This document shows, piece by piece, positions 7,570 through 23,783 of a DNA stretch of 24,000 nt. How positions within the stretch are numbered: position 1 is the first letter of the stretch; the number at the start of each line of letters is the position of its first letter. Under the pieces are notes generated by a model. The model saw only the letters and a list, made by a program, of their open reading frames with translations. It made no database searches and was not told the DNA's origin. A program made the position numbers and the translations under genes. Source of the DNA: Fervidicella metallireducens AeB. GTDB taxonomy: Bacteria; Bacillota; Clostridia; Clostridiales; Caloramatoraceae. The stretch covers positions 129,755-153,754 of the forward strand of contig NZ_AZQP01000001.1 in assembly GCF_000601455.1 (NCBI RefSeq). The letters are read 5' to 3'.

Positions 7570-7645
7570 GGGCGCATAGCTCAGCTGGGAGAGCATCTGC
7601 CTTACAAGCAGAGGGTCACAGGTTCGATCCCTGTTGTGCCCACCA
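7570..7645 (+). tRNA. tRNA-Val (anticodon TAC), CCA encoded
   Basis: The acceptor stem is gggcgca/tgtgccc, the anticodon loop is cttacaa, the T-arm is ggttcgatcc, and the 3' end is CCA. Length is 76 nt. Confidence 0.92.
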
Positions 7646-7652
7646 TATGAAT

Positions 7653-7728
7653 GCCGGCTTAGCTCAATTGGCAGAGCAACTGACTTGTAATCAGTAGGTT
7701 GTAGGTTCAAGTCCTATAGCCGGCTCCA
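7653..7728 (+). tRNA. tRNA-Thr (anticodon TGT), CCA encoded
   Basis: The acceptor stem is gccggct/agccggc, the anticodon loop is cttgtaa, and the T-arm is ggttcaagtcc. Length is 76 nt. Confidence 0.9.
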
Positions 7729-7733
7729 TATAC

Positions 7734-7818
7734 GGAGGAGTTCCCGAGTGGCCAAAGGGGGCGGACTGTAAATCCGTTAGCACAGCTTTCGATGGTTCGA
7801 ATCCATCCTCCTCCACCA
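7734..7818 (+). tRNA. tRNA-Tyr (anticodon GTA), long variable arm, CCA encoded
   Basis: The acceptor stem is ggaggag/ctcctcc, the anticodon loop is ctgtaaa, there is a long variable arm, and the T-arm is ggttcgaatcc. Length is 85 nt. Confidence 0.9.
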
Positions 7819-7898: not shown

Positions 7899-7974
7899 GG
7901 GCGCATAGCTCAGCTGGGAGAGCATCTGCCTTACAAGCAGAGGGTCACAGGTTCGATCCCTGTTGTGCCCACCA
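7899..7974 (+). tRNA. tRNA-Val (anticodon TAC), second copy
   Basis: Identical in sequence to 7570-7645. Confidence 0.92.
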
Positions 7975-7981
7975 TATAAAT

Positions 7982-8057
7982 GCCGGCTTAGCTCAATTGG
8001 CAGAGCAACTGACTTGTAATCAGTAGGTTGTAGGTTCAAGTCCTATAGCCGGCTCCA
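7982..8057 (+). tRNA. tRNA-Thr (anticodon TGT), second copy
   Basis: Identical in sequence to 7653-7728. Confidence 0.9.
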
Positions 8058-8062
8058 AATGC

Positions 8063-8147
8063 GGAGGAGTTCCCGAGTGGCCAAAGGGGGCGGACTGTAA
8101 ATCCGTTAGCACAGCTTTCGATGGTTCGAATCCATCCTCCTCCACCA
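8063..8147 (+). tRNA. tRNA-Tyr (anticodon GTA), second copy
   Basis: Identical in sequence to 7734-7818. Confidence 0.9.
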
Positions 8148-8707: not shown

Positions 8708-8741
8708 TAATTATCGTAAAAACGAATACTATTTTTTAACC

Positions 8742-8890
8742 CTTATCAAGAGAGGTGGAGGGACGGGCCCGATGAAACCCGGCAACCGGTGGCAAAAGCT
8801 ACTATGGTGCCAATTCCTGCAGAATGTTATATTCTGGTAGATGAGGATGTTTGAGAAATCAAGCCTCTTCATGTTGAAGAGGCTTTAATT
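8742..8890 (+). promoter_or_regulatory. SAM-I (S-box) riboswitch with its terminator, 5' leader of metK
   Basis: The S-box core is present: cttatcaagagaggtggagggacgggcccgatgaaacccggcaacc ... ggtgccaattcc ... agatgag. It is followed by a perfect 10-bp terminator stem, aagcctcttc/gaagaggctt (8861-8885), directly upstream of metK. Confidence 0.9.
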
Positions 8891-8928: not shown

Positions 8929-10113
8929 ATGGTAAAGAGATTATTCACTTCAGAATCAGTAACAGAAGGACATCCAGATAAAATCTGTGACCAGATTTCA
9001 GACTCAGTTTTAGATGCAATACTAGAAAAGGACCCAAATGCTAGAGTTGCTTGCGAAACAGCAGTTACAACAGGTATGGTTCTTGTTATGGGAGAAATAA
9101 CTACAAATTGTTATGTTGATATTCCTAAAATAGTTAGAAAGACAATTGAAGAAATAGGGTATACAAGAGCTAAATATGGTTTTGATTCAGATACATGTGC
9201 AGTAATAACTTCAATTGATGAACAATCATCAGATATAGCAATGGGTGTTGACACTGCGTTAGAAGCTAAAAAAGGAGAAATGGACGCAATAGAAGCAATT
9301 GGAGCAGGAGACCAAGGTATGATGTTTGGTTTCGCATGTAATGAAACACCAGAATACATGCCGCTTCCAATAGCAATGGCACATAGATTATCAAGAAGGC
9401 TTGCAGAAGTAAGAAAAAATGGAACCCTTGAATACTTAAGACCAGATGGAAAAACACAAGTAACAGTAGAATACCATGACAATAAGCCAGTAAGAATAGA
9501 TGCAATTGTTATATCAACTCAACATAGCCCAGAAGTAACTAGAGAACAAATAGAAAGGGATATGCTTGAGCATGTAGTTAGCAAGGTTGTACCAGCTAAT
9601 CTTTTAGATGAAAATACAAAGTATTACATAAACCCAACTGGAAGATTTGTTATAGGTGGACCACATGGAGATTCAGGATTAACAGGAAGAAAAATTATAG
9701 TTGATACTTATGGTGGATATGGAAGACATGGTGGTGGTGCTTTCTCAGGAAAGGATCCAACTAAGGTTGACCGTTCAGCTGCATATGCTGCAAGATGGGT
9801 TGCTAAAAACTTAGTTGCTGCTGGTGTTGCAGAAAAATTAGAAATAGAAGTAGCTTATGCAATAGGTGTTGCTAGACCGGTTTCAATTGAAGTAGATACA
9901 TTTGGAACAGGAAAGATAGCAGACGATAAGATAGTTGAAATAATCAATAAGGTATTTGATTTAAGACCTGCTGCAATAATTAAAGAATTAGACCTTAGAA
10001 GACCAATATATAGACAAACCGCAGCTTATGGACATTTTGGTAGAACAGATTTAAATTTACCATGGGAAAACCTGAACAAGGTAGAAGAAATAAAGAAAGC
10101 AATGATGGAATAA
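8929..10113 (+). CDS. metK: S-adenosylmethionine synthase MetK
   Basis: MetK motifs are present: [54 protein letters not shown] lies upstream of the ATG. Confidence 0.97.
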
Positions 10114-13449: not shown

Positions 13450-15120
13450 TTGATGTCTATGAAACCAAAAGGGGTGTTTGGTTTGGATGTAGTTATTTTT
13501 AAGGCGAGGGGAAGAGGAGGATATATATATGATATGTCCATAAATCCCCTTGTAGATTTCAGCATATTAAAGAGGACAAGAAAAATAGATAAAATAGAGG
13601 TTATCACACCGAAAATATCAATTGAGAAGGCAGAGATTATTTTAAAAAGCATATATGGAGTATCATCTATTATAGGAAAACTCATATCGTCACAAGATTA
13701 TATGATAAATAATATATTAAGAAAAAATGATGTTAAAAAAATAAAATATGAAATAAACAATGGAATAGAAATACCTTCTCCTCAAAAAATTGCGTCCGTT
13801 GAGGAGATAATAGTAGGAAAAATTTTAAGTCTGGAAAAACTGCTGGGTATAAAGGATAAACTGGGAATTACCAGTGAGGAAATGACTATTATAATTCAGA
13901 CCTTATATTGTCAAAGAAGAATAAAAATGACCTGCGCCATCCATAAGGTAAAAAATAAACACACATGCTTTATATGTAACAGGGAGCCGTGTCCTAGCTG
14001 TACCCTTGGTATTGAAAAGGATGATATATTGGTATATGCTGCTGATAATTATAGTATAAGTATACCTGAAAATATAATTTTAAAAGACAAGAGGTTATCT
14101 GATGTCATAAAGGATGCCCAGAATGATTTTACTAATTTTTTAAAATCCAAGAAGCTGTCTTGTGTAATCTGGTGTGCTCCTTCTGCCTTTGAATATGATA
14201 TTGTTTCAACAGGTGTTTTTAACATAATCAGAAGGGGTGGAAGGGTTTTATATATAACTTCAACAGCAATGGCATATAGTACAAAAGAGTTCTTTGGTAA
14301 TAATTTTTATGGTGCCAAGGTTGGAATTGTAACGAATGTTTTTTCTAGAGGTGAGAACCTTGATATAACGATATGCTCCTACGACAATTATCCATGTTTT
14401 TACAAAAGTTTTGATTTGGTAATTTTAGATGTTAGGTATTCCTTTATTTACAGACCGATGATTAATACCAAATATGTATGTCCAAAGGCTGCAAAGGAAA
14501 AGGGAAAGTTTGTAACGATATCCTATGTTGTTGAAAAGGAAAAGAATTCTTTAATCAATACTACTACAGACCCATTGATATTACCTGTGACATACATTAA
14601 AAAGCCAATTCCTGAGCCGCGTATAATAACATCAAGATATTTAAAATCTCCAGAGGCATTTATTCCTCAGATGGCAATGGATTTGATTAATTGGTCAATC
14701 AGTGAAGGTATAAGAGTGGTTATTTTTGTACCTGATGAAGAAGGTCTTTATAAGGTGTATTTTTATCTTTCAACACTTGAAGGATTTGAAAAGGATTCAA
14801 TTGATGTATCAGATGAGGATGAAAAGGCAGGATTATTAAGATTTAAAAGAAAAGAAAGTAAAATACTGATATCAAAGGACTTTAAAGATACATTACATCT
14901 TATGGAGGATGTAAATGTTGTAGTTATGTTTAGTGATGAAGGCATATACTCTACTGAAACCCTTATATATATGTCTTCTATGGCAACTATGCAAAATAAT
15001 AAGAAACTTGGGGAGGTAGTTTTTGTTGCTACACAGGAAAGTGAGGCCATGTCTTTAGCAAAATCTGCAATAAGAAACCTGAACAAAATAGCTTGGGACA
15101 AGGGATACTTAAAAAAATAA
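13450..15120 (+). CDS. comFA: ComFA-like protein with a zinc ribbon and degenerate (apparently inactive) helicase motifs
   Basis: It lies directly upstream of comFC and overlaps it. It has the Cys cluster CFICNREPCPSC and the ComFA-specific KPIPEPR. The Walker A position reads CAPSAFEY, the DExD position reads LDVRYSF and the motif VI position reads MSSMATM. The start is uncertain (TTG 13450, or ATG 13453 or 13459). Confidence 0.65.
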   Translation: MMSMKPKGVFGLDVVIFKARGRGGYIYDMSINPLVDFSILKRTRKIDKIEVITPKISIEKAEIILKSIYGVSSIIGKLISSQDYMINNILRKNDVKKIKYEINNGIEIPSPQKIASVEEIIVGKILSLEKLLGIKDKLGITSEEMTIIIQTLYCQRRIKMTCAIHKVKNKHTCFICNREPCPSCTLGIEKDDILVYAADNYSISIPENIILKDKRLSDVIKDAQNDFTNFLKSKKLSCVIWCAPSAFEYDIVSTGVFNIIRRGGRVLYITSTAMAYSTKEFFGNNFYGAKVGIVTNVFSRGENLDITICSYDNYPCFYKSFDLVILDVRYSFIYRPMINTKYVCPKAAKEKGKFVTISYVVEKEKNSLINTTTDPLILPVTYIKKPIPEPRIITSRYLKSPEAFIPQMAMDLINWSISEGIRVVIFVPDEEGLYKVYFYLSTLEGFEKDSIDVSDEDEKAGLLRFKRKESKILISKDFKDTLHLMEDVNVVVMFSDEGIYSTETLIYMSSMATMQNNKKLGEVVFVATQESEAMSLAKSAIRNLNKIAWDKGYLKK

Positions 15121-15797
15121 GACTTATTTTAGATTGTTTCTTAGAAATAATCTTTCCAGAGCCAATAACCTGTACCATGTGTGGGAGAGTATTAAAAGAA
15201 GCTAATAAATATTATCTGTGTACAGGATGCCTGTCACAGATTAAATGCTATAGTAATAGTGAGAATAAAATACCAGTAGAAGAAAGCATTTTTAAACAGG
15301 ATTTACATATGGCATTTGATGAAACTTATTCAGCCTGTGTGTATGAGGGTATAAGCAGAGATTTAGTTCATAAGTTAAAATATAAAGACAAACAAAATAT
15401 TGCCAAAACAATGGCGGCTATGATTAAAGACGTTTTAGGTAATGATTTGAAATATGATATGATAGTACCAGTTCCAATTCATCCATCTAGACTTAAAAAA
15501 AGAGGATATAACCAAGGGGAGTTAATAGCATCCGAACTTGAAAATATTGTGAATATTCCAATGATTAAAGCTTTAAAAAGAACAAAAAATACTCCTTCGC
15601 AGGTATTGTTTAATGAGAGGGATAGATGGTATAATGTTAAATGTGCTTTTTCATGCACATTAAACTTAAAGGGCAAAAGGATTCTGCTTATTGACGATGT
15701 TATTACAACAGGTGCAACTGCTCATTATTGTGCTGAGACACTTAAAGCTTCAGGGGCGGTTTATGTTACGGCAGTTTCTTTTGCAAGAACTAAATAA
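15093..15797 (+). CDS. comFC: ComFC (ComF family phosphoribosyltransferase-domain protein)
   Basis: It has N-terminal CxxC pairs (CTMCG, CTGCL) and the PRT motif ILLIDDVITTGAT. The TTG start overlaps the end of the comFA-like gene. Confidence 0.85.
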   Translation: MGQGILKKIRLILDCFLEIIFPEPITCTMCGRVLKEANKYYLCTGCLSQIKCYSNSENKIPVEESIFKQDLHMAFDETYSACVYEGISRDLVHKLKYKDKQNIAKTMAAMIKDVLGNDLKYDMIVPVPIHPSRLKKRGYNQGELIASELENIVNIPMIKALKRTKNTPSQVLFNERDRWYNVKCAFSCTLNLKGKRILLIDDVITTGATAHYCAETLKASGAVYVTAVSFARTK

Positions 15798-15806
15798 ATC
15801 AGTTTA

Positions 15807-16035
15807 AAAGACACTTTTATCAACTAGGTCTGTGGTTGAAAATCGATGCTAGTCGCAGGCAAAACGATCCACGTAAGTTAGACAAAAGTCTGATGAGCAT
15901 GGTGCGGTTTAGAGGTAAGACCTGCCGAATTTTAATTCGAGAGGGGTAGTAGTGAGAGGAATACACCTTAGGCGAACCCCCCAGCAGGCGAGTGTGGGGG
16001 CAAAGACCAGGTCAGCTAGTTGAATAGGTGTCTTT
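15807..16035 (+). ncRNA. Structured ncRNA, candidate raiA-motif RNA
   Basis: This is a GC-rich island in AT-rich intergenic DNA. It is closed by long-range helices: aaagacac (15807-15814) with gtgtcttt (16028-16035), and caactag (15821-15827) with ctagttg (16016-16022). Internal hairpins include ttagac-aaaa-gtctga (15878-15893), cgaa/ttcg (15926-15939) and a C5/G5 stem (15977-16000). It has no ORF. It sits between comFC and hpf/raiA, the reported typical locus of the raiA motif. Confidence 0.7.
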
Positions 16036-16083
16036 ATTTTATTGGAAAATTATAGAAAAATATATCGTAATAAAAAAAATGCA

Positions 16084-16255
16084 AGTGGATAAAATAAAAA
16101 TATGCAATATCTTGTAGGAGATTTATGTAATCCTTGTTCGGTTGTGTAAAATTTTCTACAGCTAATCCACAGTGTGTGTGAATTAAATATTAGAATTTTC
16201 AAGTTATACACAAACTTATAAACATTATTCACATAATTAAAAAAAGTTATCCACA
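16084..16255. promoter_or_regulatory. Cluster of five DnaA-box-like 9-mers
   Basis: TTATCCACA is perfect at 16247-16255. Four sites carry one mismatch: ttattcaca 16225-16233, ttatacaca 16204-16212, taatccaca 16163-16171, and the inverted agtggataa at 16084-16092. Confidence 0.55.
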
Positions 16256-16452
16256 TGAGAACGTAGGAAAGAATAATTATTAACAAAATATTTTATTTAA
16301 AGAATTATGATGTAAAACTTTAATGGGGTTTCAAAAAAATAAATATTAAAAAATAAGTCAAAAATACTTGAATATAATAGAAATAAAGATTAAAATAATA
16401 GTAAGAAAATTTTAAATATTCCCTTAACTTTACTATGAGAGGGGTAGATATT

Positions 16453-16977
16453 ATGAGATTGACAGTTGTAGGGAAAAACATAATGTTAACAGATGCATTA
16501 AAGGACATTGTAGAAAAGAAACTTGGCAAACTTGACAGGTATTTTGATCCTCAGGTTGAGGTAAATGCAACCTTAAGCGTTCAAAAGAACAGACAAATAA
16601 TTGAAGTTACAATACCATTTAATGGTATGATTCTAAGGGGAGAAGAAGCAACAGAGGATATGTATTCCTCAATTGATAGTGTTGTAGATAAAATAGAAAA
16701 GCAGATAATTAAACATAAAACAAAATTAGAGAGAAAGATTCATGAGGGAACACTCAGATTCCCAGAAGTTGAAGAAGATAATATAGATGAGGAGCCCAAA
16801 ATTGTTAAAAATAAAAAGTTTTATGTAAAGCCTATGGATGCACAGGAAGCAATACTTCAAATGGAACTTTTAGGACATAATTTCTTTGTATTCAGAGATG
16901 CTGAAACAAACGATGTAAATGTTATTTATAAAAGAAAAGATGGAAACTATGGCTTAATAGAACCAGATTTTCAATGA
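16453..16977 (+). CDS. hpf: Ribosome hibernation promoting factor, long form (HPF/RaiA/YvyD)
   Basis: It has an S30AE-type N-terminal domain (MRLTVVGKNIMLTDALKDIVEKKLGKLDRYF) and the long-HPF C-terminal dimerisation domain (KPMDAQEAILQMELLGHNFFVFRDAETNDVNVIYKRKDGNYGLIEP). ATG 16453 follows AGAGGGGT. Confidence 0.92.
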   Translation: MRLTVVGKNIMLTDALKDIVEKKLGKLDRYFDPQVEVNATLSVQKNRQIIEVTIPFNGMILRGEEATEDMYSSIDSVVDKIEKQIIKHKTKLERKIHEGTLRFPEVEEDNIDEEPKIVKNKKFYVKPMDAQEAILQMELLGHNFFVFRDAETNDVNVIYKRKDGNYGLIEPDFQ

Positions 16978-17001
16978 TTGATATTAAAATAGATATAAGT
17001 A

Positions 17002-17036
17002 ATGGAGGTCAAATTTATATGGCCTCCATTTTTTTG
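17002..17036 (+). terminator. Rho-independent terminator after hpf
   Basis: atggaggtc pairs with ggcctccat, followed by ttttttt. Confidence 0.8.
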
Positions 17037-17054
17037 AATGTGGTATTTTGGGTT

Positions 17055-17879
17055 TTACTGCTTGAATTCAATTATATTATAATCATCATAATGTCTAAAT
17101 CCAATGGAATTATATGCTTTAACAGCAGGGGTATTTTTCTTTGATACCATTAGAGTAGGAGTTTTACCTCTAGCAATTATCATCCTGCAAAGTTCAGAGA
17201 TTAGAGCCTTACAGTAGCCTTTACCTCTTTCAGTATCAAGTGTGTATACACCACCAATCTGACAAATCTTAGATGTTGAGGTCTGGATGCATCCCTGAGC
17301 AAGGATTTTACCATCTTTAAGTAGAAATAAAAAATCATCTCCAGGCACTCGCTGCTTTAACATTTTCTTGATTTCCTCGTAGTTGATTTTTGTGTCAAAG
17401 CCATCTTCATATGCATGAATCATAAAGTTTGTTACCTTATCCTCATCTATCTCGTGAGGATATTTGAAATCTATCCCTTCAAGATTGTATGGAGTATAAT
17501 TGTTATTTATATAATAGCTATCTTCTCCATATTTTTTAACGTCCTTCGTTTCTTTAATAGCTTCATATAAAGGTCTTACTATCTTTTCCATACCCAATAA
17601 AAATGAAAAAGTTTTCTTCTTCATTATTTCAGCGAAACATATTACAGCTTTATCATTTTCATAATGGGGTATGCAACTACCTATGTTATAAAATGGAAGT
17701 ATACCTTGAAGTTTACCATCCTCAAAATAACCATAATAATCTCCAGAACGATTAATTTCCTTATTGTTATCAATACCAACACCAATTACATTTCCGATTA
17801 TAAAGGTACATTCAATATGATGATTTTCAGCATATTCAAGTACCACTTCCTTATCAGCATTTGTTAGCAACCTTATCAT
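17055..17879 (-). CDS. GNAT-family N-acetyltransferase (274 aa, extended N-terminal domain)
   Basis: The C-terminal GNAT core is QIGGVYTLDTERGKGYCKALISELC ... NTPAVKAYNSIGFR (an R/QxxGxG/A-type acetyl-CoA loop). The ATG follows AAGGGGG at a 7-nt spacing. Confidence 0.75.
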   Translation of the reverse strand: MIRLLTNADKEVVLEYAENHHIECTFIIGNVIGVGIDNNKEINRSGDYYGYFEDGKLQGILPFYNIGSCIPHYENDKAVICFAEIMKKKTFSFLLGMEKIVRPLYEAIKETKDVKKYGEDSYYINNNYTPYNLEGIDFKYPHEIDEDKVTNFMIHAYEDGFDTKINYEEIKKMLKQRVPGDDFLFLLKDGKILAQGCIQTSTSKICQIGGVYTLDTERGKGYCKALISELCRMIIARGKTPTLMVSKKNTPAVKAYNSIGFRHYDDYNIIEFKQ

Positions 17880-17921
17880 ATAAATTCCCCCTTATATATG
17901 AAAATCCCTACAGAATCACAA

Positions 17922-17955
17922 GTTAGAAAGAAAGGTCACTTTTTCGGTGACCTCG
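17922..17955 (-). terminator. Terminator (minus strand) after the nuclease-like gene
   Basis: aggtcac (17933-17939) pairs with gtgacct (17947-17953). On the minus strand a T-rich tract (tttctttct) follows. Confidence 0.6.
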
Positions 17956-17985
17956 TAAAAACCAGTTCCTTTTATAACACTAGAA

Positions 17986-18873
17986 CTACAATTTATCTAC
18001 TAAATCCTCTATATACATCTTTCCTTCGTTTAGGTCGCATACTTTAATTTGAAAAGTAGAAGTCAGATTTTTACTTATGCCTTCAGGTAAATCTGAAACT
18101 AGTAAAATTGATTTATCTGCTGATGTACCCAGTTTTTTTCTAAAATCTGCATATTTAGATATATATCTTTGATAATCCCCTGTTTTACATTCAATCCATA
18201 TGGGAGAATCATTTATAACGAAAAGCATATCAATTTCAAAATCGTCACCGTTAGGCAACTCAATTTGACAATTTTGTACAAAGGAAAAATTATTGATTTC
18301 CTTTGTTTTAAGTAGCTGTAACAGGAAGTGAAGTATGTAATTTTCTAACCAACCTCCTGTAAAAAAATTTATAACCTTTCCAATCCTCTGAGGAGTTCCG
18401 ATTATAATTTTCGATGATTTTTTGTAAGAATAATTTGTTAAAAAGGCATTCTGGTGAAGTAGATTACAAAATTGGGTGGCATAAGCTATAACCTCTTGAG
18501 GTTTATTCTGCATGTTATAATAAAAGCTTCCACCGGTTGATAAAGATGGTTTAATAGTGTTATACAAATCTTTAAGATGGGGATAACGGTTGCCAAGATA
18601 GTTAGATAATTTAAAGAATATATCATCTTCTGTTTCTACTTTGTAGCTTTTAATATTTATTTTTTTCGATAGTAGATATTTTATTGCATCGTTGTTTTCT
18701 TCGTCTTTTGGAACAAATGTAACTAAGCTTTCTTCGTTTTTTGCAGTATTGTGGAATTTTTTAGAATTAATGAGATTGTGGTTATCAACACCCAGATAGC
18801 TTCTAATACAGTGAAGTTCCTCTCGAAGTAATTTAATTTCTTCAGTTAAGTTTTGAATTAGAATGTTATCCAA
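17986..18873 (-). CDS. Card1/DUF1887-like PD-(D/E)xK nuclease-domain protein with an N-terminal coiled-coil
   Basis: The C-terminal half carries FFTGGWLENYI and FEIDMLFVINDSPIWIECKTG, a D-x12-E-x-K restriction-endonuclease-fold motif as in DUF1887/Card1 nuclease domains. The TTG start has AAGGAGGTG 5 nt upstream. Confidence 0.6.
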   Translation of the reverse strand: MDNILIQNLTEEIKLLREELHCIRSYLGVDNHNLINSKKFHNTAKNEESLVTFVPKDEENNDAIKYLLSKKINIKSYKVETEDDIFFKLSNYLGNRYPHLKDLYNTIKPSLSTGGSFYYNMQNKPQEVIAYATQFCNLLHQNAFLTNYSYKKSSKIIIGTPQRIGKVINFFTGGWLENYILHFLLQLLKTKEINNFSFVQNCQIELPNGDDFEIDMLFVINDSPIWIECKTGDYQRYISKYADFRKKLGTSADKSILLVSDLPEGISKNLTSTFQIKVCDLNEGKMYIEDLVDKL

Positions 18874-22861: not shown

Positions 22862-23638
22862 TTAAATATGTTTAGAAAGAAGATATGAAACAGACCATCT
22901 TTTAAATTTATTTTTCAAAAAGAAATTGGTAGAGGATTCAAAAATATTATCTACAAATATAATAAATATATTATAAAATCTTAAGGTTTCTGAAATATCC
23001 TGAAGAATCATGCTGCCGATGCCTTGATTCTGATAATCTGGTTTTACTGCAATTTTACTGATACTTCCGTATTCTATTGTATTGTTGATTTTTAAAAGAG
23101 AAAAACCTACTGGAAGGTTATCATATATGCATATCCTGAAGATAGTATTCTTGTCTTTCAACAAATCTAAAACATCATTTTTTGATATAAGCATTGGCTT
23201 TGGAAAGCAGAGGGAGTCAATACTTCTTAAGGCTTCATAATAAGTATTTGTATAGTTTACAAACTGACATGTATTTTTATTAGTATTTGTGGAATTACAA
23301 TATTTATATAAACTTTCTATTTTATATTCAATGGTAAAACCATAAGGAATAAAGGATTCATAAAGTTCTTTCGGGATATGTGGTACATATATTTTACCTG
23401 TTAGCTTGGATGAAAGAAAAATGCACATATCAAGTATATCCTTTGAATCCGAAGAAAAATATCTAATCAAAGTACCATCATAGTATTTAATTGGGTAACA
23501 GAAATTCATGGGATTAAAATCACTTACAACTAAATCTCCAGAGCTATAAACTTTAGATAGCAGCTTTTCATCAAGAAAAAATAAGTTAACGTATTTTATC
23601 AGCCTTTTATAGTCTAAAATTGTTGCATAGTGTGGCAT
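22862..23638 (-). CDS. GNAT-family acetyltransferase-domain protein (about 258 aa)
   Basis: The C-terminal part IAVKPDYQNQGIGSMILQDISETL is a GNAT acetyl-CoA-binding motif. The N-terminal two thirds are unrecognised. ATG 23638 follows GAGGTGA by 5 nt. The ORF track starts at GTG 23647. Confidence 0.6.
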   Translation of the reverse strand: MPHYATILDYKRLIKYVNLFFLDEKLLSKVYSSGDLVVSDFNPMNFCYPIKYYDGTLIRYFSSDSKDILDMCIFLSSKLTGKIYVPHIPKELYESFIPYGFTIEYKIESLYKYCNSTNTNKNTCQFVNYTNTYYEALRSIDSLCFPKPMLISKNDVLDLLKDKNTIFRICIYDNLPVGFSLLKINNTIEYGSISKIAVKPDYQNQGIGSMILQDISETLRFYNIFIIFVDNIFESSTNFFLKNKFKRWSVSYLLSKHI

Positions 23639-23708
23639 AAAGATCACCTCATTAATTTATATGCTTGGAAGAGAAAGTAGTGAACAAAATATTAAAGAAA
23701 TAAACAAG

Positions 23709-23783
23709 TTATCCACAAAAAATGTGAATAAAACTGTTGATACTTATGTTAATTAAAAGTGAATAAATAAAAAATGTGGATAA
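23709..23783. promoter_or_regulatory. Second DnaA-box cluster
   Basis: TTATCCACA is perfect at 23709-23717 and TGTGGATAA is perfect in inverted orientation at 23775-23783. tgtgaataa at 23723-23731 has one mismatch and agtgaataa at 23758-23766 has two. Confidence 0.5.

What the first reader, a model, noticed from the sequence alone, without database searches (positions are those of the whole stretch)
15807..16035. Large structured RNA between comFC and hpf: candidate raiA-motif ncRNA
About 230 nt of visibly GC-enriched, ORF-free sequence is enclosed by two long-range helices (8 bp and 7 bp) that pair its ends. It contains several internal hairpins and ends in a T-rich tract. The raiA motif is a bioinformatically discovered ncRNA class of Bacillota and Actinomycetota. 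It is reported to lie typically between comFC and raiA(hpf), to be very abundant in C. acetobutylicum and to affect sporulation and aggregation. Its biochemical function remains unknown. This locus matches that context exactly.
Basis: partly seen in the sequence, partly recalled or inferred. Interest (0 to 1): 0.75.

Follow-up and report, generated by a model that had tools for sequence, protein, structure and literature searches.

The report
raiA (ModT) RNA gene, unusual wiring
The flagged interval is a genuine copy of the known but functionally unsolved raiA/ModT structured RNA, in Fervidicella metallireducens; the RNA is ordinary for its family, but in this lineage it seems to be transcribed from a promoter hidden in the codons of the upstream comFC gene and ended by an extension of its own closing stem.

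Summary
Window 15819-16024 (+) matches Rfam raiA (RF03072) end to end: 194.6 bits against a gathering score of 101.3, E 2.6e-50. It shows every sequence hallmark described for the family. Across 61 homologues, 91.5% of cells are paired, with compensatory changes in seven helices including both pseudoknots. Its position between comFC and hpf is the textbook one. The source is Fervidicella metallireducens AeB. As a family member it is therefore not novel.

The gene's wiring is less ordinary. Eleven Clostridium loci have a TTGACA/TATAAT promoter touching P1 and a separate hairpin terminator. This lineage has neither.

- **Outer helix.** It covaries and runs straight into a U-tract.
- **Embedded promoter.** An extended -10 promoter (TTGTTT-18-TGnTATAAT, 15606-15635) sits inside comFC codons with frozen synonymous sites.
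- **Natural control.** The promoter has decayed in a relative that lacks raiA at this locus.

I infer a roughly 400-nt precursor ended by a P1-extension terminator. No transcript data were available to test this.

Separately, a DnaA-box cluster follows raiA in two unrelated groups of Clostridia.

The parts
15819..16024 (+). raiA motif (ModT) RNA core, 206 nt; subtype without P2 and with P6-P7-P8
   Evidence: Rfam RF03072, 194.6 bits, model 1-209/209. The structure maps onto the sequence with one non-pair, A1xA206. Covariation on 61 sequences.
15819..15836 (+). 5' strand of P1: P1a 15819-15827, GU bulge 15828-15829, P1b 15830-15832, P1c 15833-15836. It pairs with 16006-16024, where the GGU bulge is 16010-16012.
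   Evidence: The bulge nucleotides are invariant in alignment A1. P1a shows compensatory changes at 8 of 9 pairs.
15838..15841 (+). GAAA of junction J1, the GAA(A) tetraloop-like turn
   Evidence: G20, A21, A22 and A23 are invariant in 61 sequences. The feature is defined in He et al. 2026.
15851..15857 (+). PK1 5' strand (P3b loop AGUCGCA), pairing with 15903-15909
   Evidence: 95.8% of cells paired; 3 pairs with compensatory changes (helix 5).
15900..15901 (+). PK2 5' strand (UG), pairing with C16001 and A16002
   Evidence: U-A changes to C-G in 4 sequences; 96.7% of cells paired (helix 8).
15909..15918 (+). Conserved single-stranded linker UUAGAGGUAA, the proposed KhpA/KhpB binding site
   Evidence: Sequence read. 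The motif UUAGA(C/A)GUAA is described by He et al. 2026. Here the variable position is G.
15943..15981 (+). P8 arm with E-loop (UAGUA / GAAC)
   Evidence: helices 12 and 13.
15807..15816 (+). Outer helix 'P0', 5' arm AAAGACACUU; lies outside the Rfam model
   Evidence: Present in the MFE and centroid folds. It covaries across the lineage. RNAalifold predicts 21 pairs, 15 with compensatory changes.
16026..16035 (+). Outer helix 'P0', 3' arm AGGUGUCUUU
   Evidence: Same as the 5' arm.
16033..16043 (+). U-tract UUUAUUUUAUU directly following the P0 stem; inferred termination site
   Evidence: Read. 7 U in 8 nt in the window's 3' flank; 7-8 in five of the six complete relatives and 5 in T. celere. 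No other terminator-like site lies before 17001.
15606..15635 (+). Inferred extended -10 promoter inside comFC: -35 TTGTTT 15606-15611, TG 15627-15628, -10 TATAAT 15630-15635; predicted TSS about 15642
   Evidence: Conserved in all lineage loci. It is the scanner's top + strand hit in L123 and L102. Y is invariant in RWYN. Synonymous sites are frozen. It has decayed in L132, which lacks raiA at this locus.
15093..15797 (+). comFC; its last ~52 codons would form the 5' leader of the inferred precursor
   Evidence: P0001 is 100% identical: F. metallireducens AeB, Q428_00765.
16453..16977 (+). hpf (long form). Start revised to the ATG at 16453, with RBS GAGAGGGG at 16438-16445. It is the downstream neighbour, not part of the RNA.
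   Evidence: The TIGR00741 match begins at residue 7 of the longer ORF.

Best explanation
Window 15819-16024 encodes the raiA-motif RNA (ModT) of Fervidicella metallireducens AeB. It is a compact, pseudoknotted, ~206-nt non-coding RNA of the subtype without P2 and with P8, the subtype whose cryo-EM structure is known from C. acetobutylicum.

What the RNA does rests on work in other clostridia and is inferred here. It acts in trans as an abundant, very stable RNA. It probably works as a ribonucleoprotein with the KH-domain proteins KhpA/KhpB, which are proposed to bind the exposed UUAGAGGUAA linker. It tunes the switch from growth to stationary phase, sporulation and aggregation; in C. difficile this runs through c-di-GMP levels. 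It does not regulate hpf in cis. Its biochemical activity is unknown.

How it is made in this lineage is my inference from comparative sequence. It has no promoter or hairpin terminator of its own next to P1. Transcription starts at an extended -10 sigma-A-type promoter written into comFC codons Q-V-L...R-W-Y-N (15606-15635, TSS about 15642), and also arrives by read-through of the recD2-orf-comFC operon. The result is a precursor of about 400 nt. This stalk serves as the intrinsic terminator for both raiA and the comF operon. It probably also fixes or protects the ends of a mature RNA of about 230 nt.

Sub-confidences: family membership 0.98; trans-acting role 0.85; embedded promoter 0.7; P0 plus U-tract as terminator 0.7; 5' processing at the stalk 0.35.
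For: Membership:
- Rfam hit of 194.6 bits against a gathering score of 101.3, full length.
- All published hallmark nucleotides are present (compared).
- 91.5% of cells paired, against 31-42% for slid controls; 0 of 500 shuffles reach the observed value; 37 pairs carry double changes, including pairs in PK1 and PK2.
- comFC upstream and hpf downstream. Clostridial source.

Trans action:
- Published complementation from a plasmid or an ectopic locus, high abundance, and KhpA/B binding.
- Locally, 428 nt separate the RNA from hpf, and a relative keeps hpf and its spacer without raiA.

Architecture:
- 11 of 11 Clostridium loci have TTGAC(A/T)-16/17-TATAAT ending 5-8 nt before P1a, and most have a separate hairpin terminator. 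The window lineage has neither.
- P0 differs in sequence but keeps its pairing in all 7 complete lineage loci: z = -3.5 to -6.3, mini-hairpin energy -21 to -34 kcal/mol, retained in the MFE of the whole predicted precursor, and 15 of 21 pairs compensatory.
- In six of the seven, 7-8 of the next 8 nt are U; T. celere has 5.
- The embedded promoter is present in 12 distinct loci, each with raiA beginning 171-202 nt after the -10.
- The ComFC motif R-W-x-N has x = Y in 48 of 50 lineage proteins and in 0 of 70 others.
- Of 45 invariant residues, only 7 use a single codon. Four of those are V171 GTA, L172 TTG, Y180 TAT and N181 AAT. Other invariant Leu columns use 4 codons (my hypergeometric estimate is about 2e-4).
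- L132 has no raiA at this locus, and its comFC reads TCC-TTA...TGG-GAA-AAT.
Against: - No transcript data exist for this organism. The TSS, the 3' end, abundance and processing are all predictions.
- In the window itself the -35 matches only 3 of 6 (TTGTTT), so the standard scanner did not list the site. It relies on the TGn extension.
- The invariant Tyr could be a lineage-specific protein requirement. TAT and AAT are also the preferred codons in AT-rich genomes.
- A terminator whose 'loop' is a 206-nt folded RNA is unconventional, and the scanner cannot score it.
- The lineage sample is small: about 9-12 distinct sequences, which are related to each other.
- The raiA-less relative is a single case, and its raiA might lie elsewhere in that genome.
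- Whether F. metallireducens has KhpA/KhpB, or sporulates, was not examined.
Confidence: 0.8

Rival explanations
1. The element is a cis-acting leader or riboswitch controlling the downstream hpf gene, as the Rfam type label 'Cis-reg; riboswitch' implies.
For: It is on the same strand as hpf and upstream of it. Rfam lists the family under riboswitches. Weinberg 2017 first noted that representatives often lie in potential 5' UTRs.
Against: 428 nt of 21% GC spacer separate the RNA from the hpf start. The RNA's closing stem runs into a U-tract with no evident alternative antiterminator pairing. Relative L132 keeps hpf and the spacer without raiA. Published work shows trans complementation, no ligand binding, and variable orientation and downstream genes.
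Confidence: 0.03
2. The RNA has a weak promoter of its own directly upstream (for example TTGCAA 15781-15786, 17 nt, TTAAAA 15804-15809), with the TSS at P1a as in other clostridia. On this view the outer complementarity is an accident of an A-rich -10 region facing a U-rich tail.
For: An A/T-rich hexamer (TATAAA, TATAGA, TAAATA, TTAAAA) lies 6-10 nt upstream of P1a in most lineage members. This is where Clostridium species place their -10.
Against: TTGCAA encodes the conserved ComFC C-terminus (F-A-K/R), and its spacing to the A/T hexamer ranges from 8 to 17 nt across the lineage. The complementarity includes the G/C-containing centre of the arms: GACAC/GUGUC, GGCAGU/ACUGCC, GGC/GCC, GAUA/UAUC. 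It covaries, and this has no explanation if the 5' arm is not transcribed.
Confidence: 0.1
3. There is no dedicated promoter. The RNA is simply the structured 3' end of the recD2-orf-comFC operon transcript. It accumulates because it is extremely stable, and the TTG...TGGTATAAT conservation reflects protein or mRNA constraints.
For: The ORFs are tightly packed or overlapping, and no terminator is predicted between them. ModT half-life exceeds 180 min in C. difficile, so even weak transcription could build up the RNA. P0 plus the U-tract would end the operon either way.
Against: The conserved nucleotides match an extended -10 promoter exactly, at the correct 18-nt spacing, while the 12 nt between them vary freely. 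The synonymous freeze is confined to the two hexamers. The constraint disappears when raiA is absent from the locus. Competence operons are usually weakly and conditionally expressed (general knowledge), which fits poorly with an RNA that ranks among the most abundant in related species.
Confidence: 0.12
4. The RNA is a ribozyme: it self-processes or cleaves other RNAs. In this lineage it would remove its own ~165-nt leader.
For: The Breaker and Faber groups raise catalysis as a possibility for this large, highly conserved fold. The inferred precursor in this lineage would need 5' trimming.
Against: No cleavage has been reported in in-line probing or in the structural studies. Nothing in this analysis bears on catalysis.
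Confidence: 0.04

Closest known systems
raiA motif RNA of Clostridium acetobutylicum (Ca-raiA; Soares et al. 2024, He et al. 2026)
   Same: Same Rfam family and same subtype: no P2, with P6-P7-P8 and an E-loop. Lengths are 206 and 204 nt. The same hallmark nucleotides are present (U19, G20, A21, A22, A23; GU and GGU bulges; PK1; PK2; 8-nt P4-P1c linker). comFC lies immediately upstream.
   Different: Ca-raiA is followed by gntR rather than hpf, and the published rescue used 'its natural promoter'. The window copy has no adjacent promoter. It also has a covarying P1 extension fused to a U-tract and a promoter embedded in comFC. The variable linker position is G rather than C or A.
ModT of Clostridioides difficile (Lence et al. 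2024)
   Same: Same family. GC content is far above the genome average (0.47-0.49 here, against about 0.3). The expected role is a trans-acting modulator of the growth transition and sporulation.
   Different: ModT starts at an intergenic SigA promoter. It has two isoforms (215 and 260 nt) because a separate terminator hairpin lies downstream. The window has only the P0/U-tract end, so a single 3' end is predicted. T. celere (L102) has both kinds of end.
raiA RNA of Thermobrachium celere DSM 8682 (locus L102)
   Same: Closest sequence found: 90% identity over the RNA, Rfam 197.6 bits. It has the same architecture: an embedded TTGCTA-18-TGnTATAAT promoter, a P0 helix (AGGCAGU/ACUGCCU), a U-tract, and a DnaA-box cluster before hpf.
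   Different: Its P0 is contiguous with P1a, with no internal loop, and has an entirely different sequence. An extra hairpin terminator lies 43 nt downstream.
Type I 3'-UTR-derived small RNAs with a promoter inside the upstream ORF, such as MicL in cutC and DapZ in dapB (from my own knowledge, not checked here)
   Same: The inferred logic is the same: a promoter embedded in the coding sequence of the upstream gene, a terminator shared with that gene's mRNA, and a longer primary transcript trimmed to a shorter stable RNA.
   Different: Those are short, Hfq-dependent, base-pairing RNAs of Proteobacteria. raiA is a large RNA with a tertiary fold and no known base-pairing target. The resemblance concerns gene architecture only, and no part of it has been shown experimentally here.

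Membership tests
raiA motif RNA / ModT (Rfam RF03072) | Covariance-model score at or above the curated gathering threshold, covering the full model | tested here: met
   194.6 bits against 101.3, E 2.6e-50, model 1-209/209, not truncated.
raiA motif RNA / ModT (Rfam RF03072) | Closing stem P1 in three segments (P1a, P1b, P1c) separated by conserved GU and GGU bulges, with a 9-bp P1a | tested here: met
   P1a 15819-27/16016-24 (8 pairs plus A.A); GU 15828-29; P1b CUG/CAG; GGU 16010-12; P1c UGGU/ACCA. The bulge bases are invariant in 61 sequences. P1a covaries at 8 of 9 pairs.
raiA motif RNA / ModT (Rfam RF03072) | GAA(A) tetraloop-like junction after P1c (U19, G20, A21, A22, A23), in the subtype without P2 | tested here: met
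   UGAAA at 15837-15841. G20-A23 are invariant. The feature is defined. The tertiary contact itself cannot be tested here.
raiA motif RNA / ModT (Rfam RF03072) | Core of P3a/P3b with an A-rich asymmetric loop, P4, and pseudoknots PK1 and PK2 | tested here: met
   All pairs form in the window sequence. P3 and P4 are invariant, so they are uninformative for covariation. PK1: 95.8% of cells paired, 3 compensatory pairs. PK2: U-A changes to C-G in 4 sequences.
raiA motif RNA / ModT (Rfam RF03072) | Conserved 10-nt single-stranded linker UUAGA(C/A)GUAA between PK1 and P6 | tested here: met
   UUAGAGGUAA at 15909-15918. Nine of 10 positions match. G at the variable position also occurs in L122, L035 and L091.
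raiA motif RNA / ModT (Rfam RF03072) | Peripheral domain P5 and P6-P7-P8, with an E-loop in P8 (the majority variant) | tested here: met
   P5, P6, P7 and proximal P8 are 89-99% paired, with many compensatory changes. Distal P8 aligns poorly (67%) under MAFFT.
raiA motif RNA / ModT (Rfam RF03072) | Typical context and taxonomy: downstream of comFC, upstream of raiA/hpf, in Bacillota or Actinomycetota | tested here: met
   Published frequencies are 74% for comFC upstream and 66% for raiA/hpf downstream.
raiA motif RNA / ModT (Rfam RF03072) | Expressed as an abundant, stable, discrete transcript that acts in trans (sporulation, aggregation, growth-transition phenotypes; KhpA/KhpB binding) | not testable with these tools
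   Known only from C. acetobutylicum, C. difficile, C. perfringens and P. sordellii. No transcriptome or genetics is available for Fervidicella.
Riboswitch / cis-regulatory leader (Rfam's type label for this family) | Aptamer immediately upstream of the regulated ORF, with an expression platform that switches between alternative structures | tested here: not met
   428 nt separate the RNA from hpf. The closing stem itself ends in the U-tract, with no competing antiterminator seen in the MFE or centroid fold. hpf is retained without the RNA in L132.
Intrinsic (Rho-independent) terminator | Stable G/C-containing stem followed directly by a U-tract, often with a complementary upstream A-tract | tested here: inconclusive
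   The stem (P0 plus P1a, 18-22 bp, -21 to -34 kcal/mol when closed by a tetraloop), the A-tract and the U-tract are all present and conserved. The 'loop' is a 206-nt folded RNA, so the standard scanner cannot call it. Termination was not measured.
ORF-internal-promoter (type I 3'-UTR-derived) RNA gene architecture | Functional promoter inside the upstream coding sequence, with a terminator shared with that mRNA | tested here: inconclusive
   The sequence evidence is strong: conserved TTGnnn-18-TGnTATAAT, frozen synonymous sites, and loss together with raiA. No TSS mapping or reporter data exist.

The most novel reading that the evidence does not exclude
The raiA locus in this lineage may be a compact unit tied to replication status. 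On this reading, the RNA is made from a promoter written into comFC codons and is ended, and possibly processed, by an extension of its own P1 stem. The DnaA-box cluster just downstream follows raiA in two unrelated clostridial groups that have different downstream genes. It would link this growth-transition RNA locus to DnaA, that is, to the cell's replication-initiation state. If so, comparative genomics would supply a first regulatory input for an RNA whose function has been open since 2017.
Probability: 0.15. Interest if true: 0.65.

Novelty: new member of a known kind. Interest (0 to 1): 0.38.

Why it matters
The identification itself adds little. raiA/ModT is already catalogued in more than 2,700 species, and a comFC-hpf spacer is its classic location.

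The comparison has more value than the annotation, in four ways.

1. The published claim that the length of P1a is strictly conserved applies only within the model boundaries. Several lineages extend the stem beyond it, and in this lineage the extension doubles as the terminator.
2. An abundant housekeeping-like RNA can apparently lose its strong intergenic promoter and be driven instead from codons of the neighbouring gene. This leaves a measurable footprint: an invariant Tyr and frozen synonymous sites. Annotation pipelines and dN/dS analyses would misread that footprint.
3. A close relative that lacks raiA at this locus, and lacks the footprint with it, offers a ready comparative handle.
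4. The unexplained pairing of raiA with DnaA-box clusters may help explain why raiA usually lies hundreds of nucleotides from the next gene.

Tried and rejected
- **ComFC peptide scan of species-representative genomes.** It found no relative, so the organism was identified from the protein database instead.
- **Exact-sequence look-ups of Hpf.** Both possible starts returned nothing.
- **Adjacent promoter TTGCAA-17-TTAAAA.** Considered and rejected. TTGCAA is the ComFC C-terminal F-A-K/R codons, its spacing to any -10-like hexamer is not conserved, and a TSS at P1a would leave the P0 covariation unexplained.
- **Other + strand promoter-like sites in comFC.** TTGAAA-16-AATGAT at 15538-15565 is not conserved in relatives.
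- **Replication origin.** The very AT-rich, DnaA-box-bearing spacer was considered as an origin and rejected. GC skew stays positive throughout 14800-17200 and genes keep the same orientation on both sides.
- **DnaA-box clusters as an AT-richness artefact.** Rejected using 150 permuted motifs.
- **Rfam's own secondary structure.** It models PK1 as a nested helix and mis-registers P5 on this sequence. I used the revised published consensus instead.
- **Whether this copy is in the published catalogue.** The supplement of Soares et al. is not held as text, so this could not be checked.
- **The 556-aa ORF in the ComFA position.** It has no Pfam match at E <= 10, no NCBIfam match at the default E <= 0.001, and no meaningful PDB match (only a hemagglutinin chain at E = 2). 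I ran no further search on it.
- **Truncated contigs.** Four short-read contigs of relatives stop inside raiA (L121, L128, L130, L134), so only their 5' halves could be used.
Full report
**1. The observation**

- GC reaches 0.47 in 15800-15999. The flanks are at 0.25-0.36 and the downstream spacer at 0.175-0.245.
- The only ORF is a mechanical 48-aa reading frame on the minus strand.
- The single-strand fold has z = -4.08 against dinucleotide shuffles, and none of 200 shuffles folds as well.
- Two helices join the ends in both the MFE and the centroid structures. The outer helix is AAAGACAC(UU) 15807-15816 with (AG)GUGUCUUU 16026-16035. The inner helix is UCAACUAG 15820-15827 with CUAGUUGA 16016-16023.
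- The 3' arm of the outer helix runs into UUUAUUUUAUU at 16033-16043.

**2. What it is**

A scan of the whole window against Rfam 15 gives a full-length raiA (RF03072) match at 15819-16024. It covers model positions 1-209 of 209 and scores 194.6 bits against a gathering score of 101.3, with E 2.6e-50.

The neighbouring genes fit the expected context.
- Upstream is a ComF-family phosphoribosyltransferase. It matches TIGR00201 at E 4e-32, which is below its trusted cutoff, and also matches Pribosyltran and a double zinc ribbon.
- Downstream is a long-form HPF. It matches TIGR00741 at 95.9 bits, above its cutoff of 40.9, and both S30AE domains.
- The wider order is recD2, an unassigned 556-aa ORF, comFC, raiA, hpf, then secA and prfB.
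- The ComFC protein is 100% identical to Q428_00765 of Fervidicella metallireducens AeB. This is an iron-reducing thermoanaerobe from the Great Artesian Basin.

**3. Testing the family features**

I took the defining features from the literature rather than from memory. Soares et al. 2024 describe P1-P8, two pseudoknots and 51 highly conserved positions. He et al. 2026 describe the following:
- P1a, P1b and P1c with GU and GGU bulges;
- a GAA(A) turn at U19-A23;
- a kinked P3a/P3b and a six-pair PK1;
- PK2 within an 8-nt linker between P4 and P1c;
- the exposed linker UUAGA(C/A)GUAA;
- an E-loop in P8.

All of these map onto the window sequence with a single non-pair, A1xA206. There is no P2 and P8 is present, so this is the C. 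acetobutylicum subtype.

For covariation I collected 120 raiA loci with a degenerate DNA pattern. I aligned 61 distinct sequences of 198-216 nt with MAFFT, which does not fit the alignment to any structure. Counting the literature structure on that alignment gave these results:
- 91.5% of cells are paired, against 31-42% when partners are slid by 1-3 columns.
- None of 500 column shuffles reaches any of the five measures.
- 37 of 64 pairs carry changes on both sides.
- Compensatory changes occur in P1a, P5, P6, P7, P8, PK1 (three pairs) and PK2, where U-A becomes C-G in four sequences.
- P1b, P1c, P3 and P4 are (near-)invariant and therefore uninformative.

Membership is secure.

**4. What the family is known to do**

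- In C. acetobutylicum the RNA is the fourth most abundant transcript outside rRNA and tRNA. It peaks at the transition to stationary phase. Deleting it lowers sporulation about tenfold and reduces aggregation, and a plasmid copy rescues both defects.
- In C. difficile, ModT starts at an intergenic SigA promoter and has 215-nt and 260-nt isoforms that differ at the 3' end. Its half-life exceeds 180 min. It acts in trans and influences sporulation through c-di-GMP levels.
- KhpA/KhpB bind raiA RNAs from four species with low-micromolar affinity. The conserved single-stranded linker is the proposed binding site.
- The biochemical activity is unknown. Riboswitch function has been argued against repeatedly, despite the Rfam type label.

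**5. What is different here**

I lined up the sequence just outside the model boundaries in each locus. Eleven Clostridium loci show TTGAC(A/T), a 16-17 nt spacer, then TATAAT ending 5-8 nt before P1a. Most also have a separate hairpin terminator shortly after P1a.

The window has neither. The same holds for its closest relative, Thermobrachium celere (90% identity over the RNA), and for uncultured relatives fetched through ComFC homologues of 42-89% identity. In all of them the RNA begins 14-41 nt after the comFC stop codon.

Every complete locus also has an outer helix, which I call P0, extending P1a. The sequences differ while the pairing is kept:
- AAAGACAC/GUGUCUUU;
- AGGCAGU/ACUGCCU;
- AGGUAUAU/AUAUGCCU;
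- AAAGGC/GCCUUU;
- AAAGAUA/UAUCUUU.

The support for P0 is as follows.
- Flank-to-flank duplex energies have z = -3.5 to -6.3 against shuffles.
- P0 plus P1a forms an 18-22 bp stalk of -21 to -34 kcal/mol, and it persists in the MFE of the whole predicted precursor.
- RNAalifold finds 21 pairs, 15 of them with compensatory changes.
- In six of the seven complete loci, 7-8 of the next 8 nt are U; T. celere has 5.
- In the window, no other terminator-like site occurs before the hpf terminator at 17001-17030.

For the 5' arm to matter it must be transcribed, so the start site must lie upstream, inside comFC.

**6. A promoter in the codons**

I scanned the 330 nt upstream of each raiA. In every lineage member this found TTG(T/C)(T/A)N, 18 nt, TGnTATAAT, ending 171-202 nt before P1a. 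The standard scanner ranks it as the top + strand site in L123 and L102, and it is the only site there with the TG extension.

In the window the elements are:
- -35 TTGTTT at 15606-15611;
- TG at 15627-15628;
- -10 TATAAT at 15630-15635.

The motif is encoded by Q-V-L and R-W-Y-N. Four lines of evidence suggest the constraint is on the nucleotides rather than only on the protein.

- **An invariant Tyr at a variable position.** In ComFC generally the motif is R-W-x-N, with x freely variable (E, N, K, D, S, L, F and others). In the window's lineage x is Y in 48 of 50 proteins, and in none of 70 more distant proteins.
- **Frozen synonymous sites.** Across nine lineage genes that are about 50-58% identical to the window's ComFC as proteins (T. 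celere's identity was not measured), 45 residues are invariant but only 7 use a single codon. Four of those 7 are V171 GTA, L172 TTG, Y180 TAT and N181 AAT. The three other invariant Leu columns each use four codons. Other Tyr and Asn columns use both of their codons. By my calculation the chance that these four columns all fall among the seven is about 2e-4.
- **Free variation between the hexamers.** The 12 nt between the two hexamers vary freely, but their length never changes.
- **A natural control.** Relative L132 has a ComFC reading R-W-E-N. It has no raiA between comFC and hpf, either at the gathering score or at E <= 10. Its DNA at this position reads TCC-TTA...TGG-GAA-AAT.

Two further checks agree. 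The most distant R-W-Y-N relative, L134, keeps the motif and has raiA abutting comFC with no adjacent promoter. A metagenome scan for the motif returned three contigs (two distinct sequences), all with raiA starting 171-175 nt after the -10.

**7. The model, and its limits**

I infer a primary transcript running from about 15642 to about 16040, roughly 400 nt. It would be supplemented by operon read-through and would end at a terminator whose stem is P0 plus P1a.

Whether the ~165-nt leader is removed, and by what, is open. RNase III acting on the ~20-bp stalk is one candidate (from general knowledge). T. celere and one metagenomic relative also carry a conventional hairpin after P0. This is the layout that gives short and long ModT isoforms in C. 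difficile.

None of this has transcript evidence. In the window the -35 is only 3 of 6, a 206-nt 'loop' is unconventional for a terminator, and the lineage sample is small and phylogenetically related.

**8. Verdict**

As a raiA family member the element is of a known kind, found in its textbook position. The new material is the lineage-specific gene architecture, which is moderately interesting and directly testable. I score interest at 0.38.

**9. Side observations**

The spacer between raiA and hpf holds five DnaA-box-like 9-mers within 172 nt (16084-16255). My estimate from the window-wide chance rate is about 0.07.
- The cluster is conserved in order and spacing in every lineage member. 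It lies about 190-300 nt upstream of the hpf ATG, and it persists in the relative that lacks raiA at this locus.
- Across 112 raiA loci (839 kb) there are 12 non-redundant clusters. Eleven lie within 700 nt downstream of raiA, a zone that makes up 8.2% of the sequence. Composition-matched permuted motifs average 0.25 clusters overall and 0.013 near raiA.
- Four of the eleven are in unrelated Clostridia. There the order is raiA, a small zinc-ribbon ORF, the cluster, then a periplasmic-binding-protein gene, with hpf kilobases away where it could be located (in two of them).
- GC skew rules out an origin of replication.
- I found no report of this association and I have no explanation for it.

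Noticed in passing
window 16084-16255: A cluster of five DnaA-box-like 9-mers (TTATCCACA with at most 1 mismatch; one is perfect, at 16247-16255) lies in the AT-rich spacer between raiA and hpf. It is conserved in order and spacing in all lineage relatives, about 190-300 nt upstream of the hpf ATG. Across 112 raiA loci, 11 of 12 non-redundant clusters lie within 700 nt downstream of raiA; permuted motifs give a mean of 0.013 there. It is unexplained and I found no report of it.
   Followed up: yes
L054 3382-3456, L090 1553-1636, L092 3915-3943, L098 6725-6785 (oriented so that raiA is on the + strand): In four unrelated Clostridia MAGs the DnaA-box cluster again follows raiA, but here it precedes a periplasmic-binding-protein/ABC-transporter gene and comes after a small zinc-ribbon ORF (MYEDKTLVCKDCG...). 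Where hpf could be located (L054 and L090) it is 3-4 kb away. The cluster therefore tracks the raiA locus rather than hpf.
   Followed up: partly
window 23709-23783: A second DnaA-box cluster (two perfect boxes and one with a single mismatch) lies in the intergenic region beside a minus-strand GNAT acetyltransferase gene (22862-23647), at the edge of the window.
   Followed up: no
L132 2001-3633: A lineage-edge relative (ComFC 44% identical, motif R-W-E-N) has comFC followed by a 391-nt spacer and hpf, with no raiA RNA at all, although it keeps the DnaA boxes. This looks like natural loss or relocation of raiA. Whether raiA sits elsewhere in that genome is unknown.
   Followed up: partly
window 13450-15120 (+): A 556-aa ORF sits in the position usually held by comFA. 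It overlaps the comFC start by 28 nt. It has no Pfam match even at E <= 10, no NCBIfam match at the default E <= 0.001, and no meaningful PDB sequence match (only a hemagglutinin chain at E = 2). It is conserved at 542-553 aa, likewise with no Pfam hit, in the relatives whose fetched contigs cover that position. It may be a very divergent ComFA or an unrelated protein.
   Followed up: partly
window 16435-16453: The hpf start is probably the ATG at 16453, which has the RBS GAGAGGGG at 16438-16445, rather than the first ATG at 16435. The TIGR00741 match begins at residue 7 of the longer ORF.
   Followed up: partly
window 17055-18873 (-): Two minus-strand genes lie between hpf and secA: a GNAT/FR47-like acetyltransferase, and a 295-aa protein with a weak, below-cutoff Card1-like endonuclease domain match. 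In every relative fetched, hpf is followed directly by secA, so this looks like a local insertion.
   Followed up: no
window 8740-8847 and 8929-10113: A SAM-I riboswitch (RF00162, 95.6 bits) lies upstream of metK (S-adenosylmethionine synthetase). This is an ordinary arrangement.
   Followed up: no
window 7570-7815 and 7899-8144: A block of three tRNA genes is tandemly duplicated. The two copies have identical Rfam scores (70.1, 73.6 and 54.9 bits) and a 329-nt period.
   Followed up: no
L042, L023, L032 (Actinomycetota MAGs); L054, L070, L074 (Christensenellales): P1 extensions beyond the Rfam boundary are not unique to this lineage. Three actinobacterial raiA copies extend P1 by about 8-9 bp (GAAGGCU/AGCCUUC); in L042 and L023 a U-run follows (6 U in 8 nt), in L032 only 4. 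Three Christensenellales copies extend it by 12-13 bp with no U-tract. The reported strict length of P1a may therefore partly reflect where the alignments stop.
   Followed up: partly
L121, L128, L130, L134 (contig ends): Four short-read (Logan) contigs from relatives terminate inside the raiA gene, 43-190 nt after comFC. This may be an assembly effect of this GC-rich, structured and highly conserved segment.
   Followed up: no
L102 1528-1560: T. celere has a conventional hairpin terminator 43 nt beyond its P0/U-tract end. It may therefore make short and long raiA isoforms, as C. difficile does. The window has no such second terminator.
   Followed up: partly
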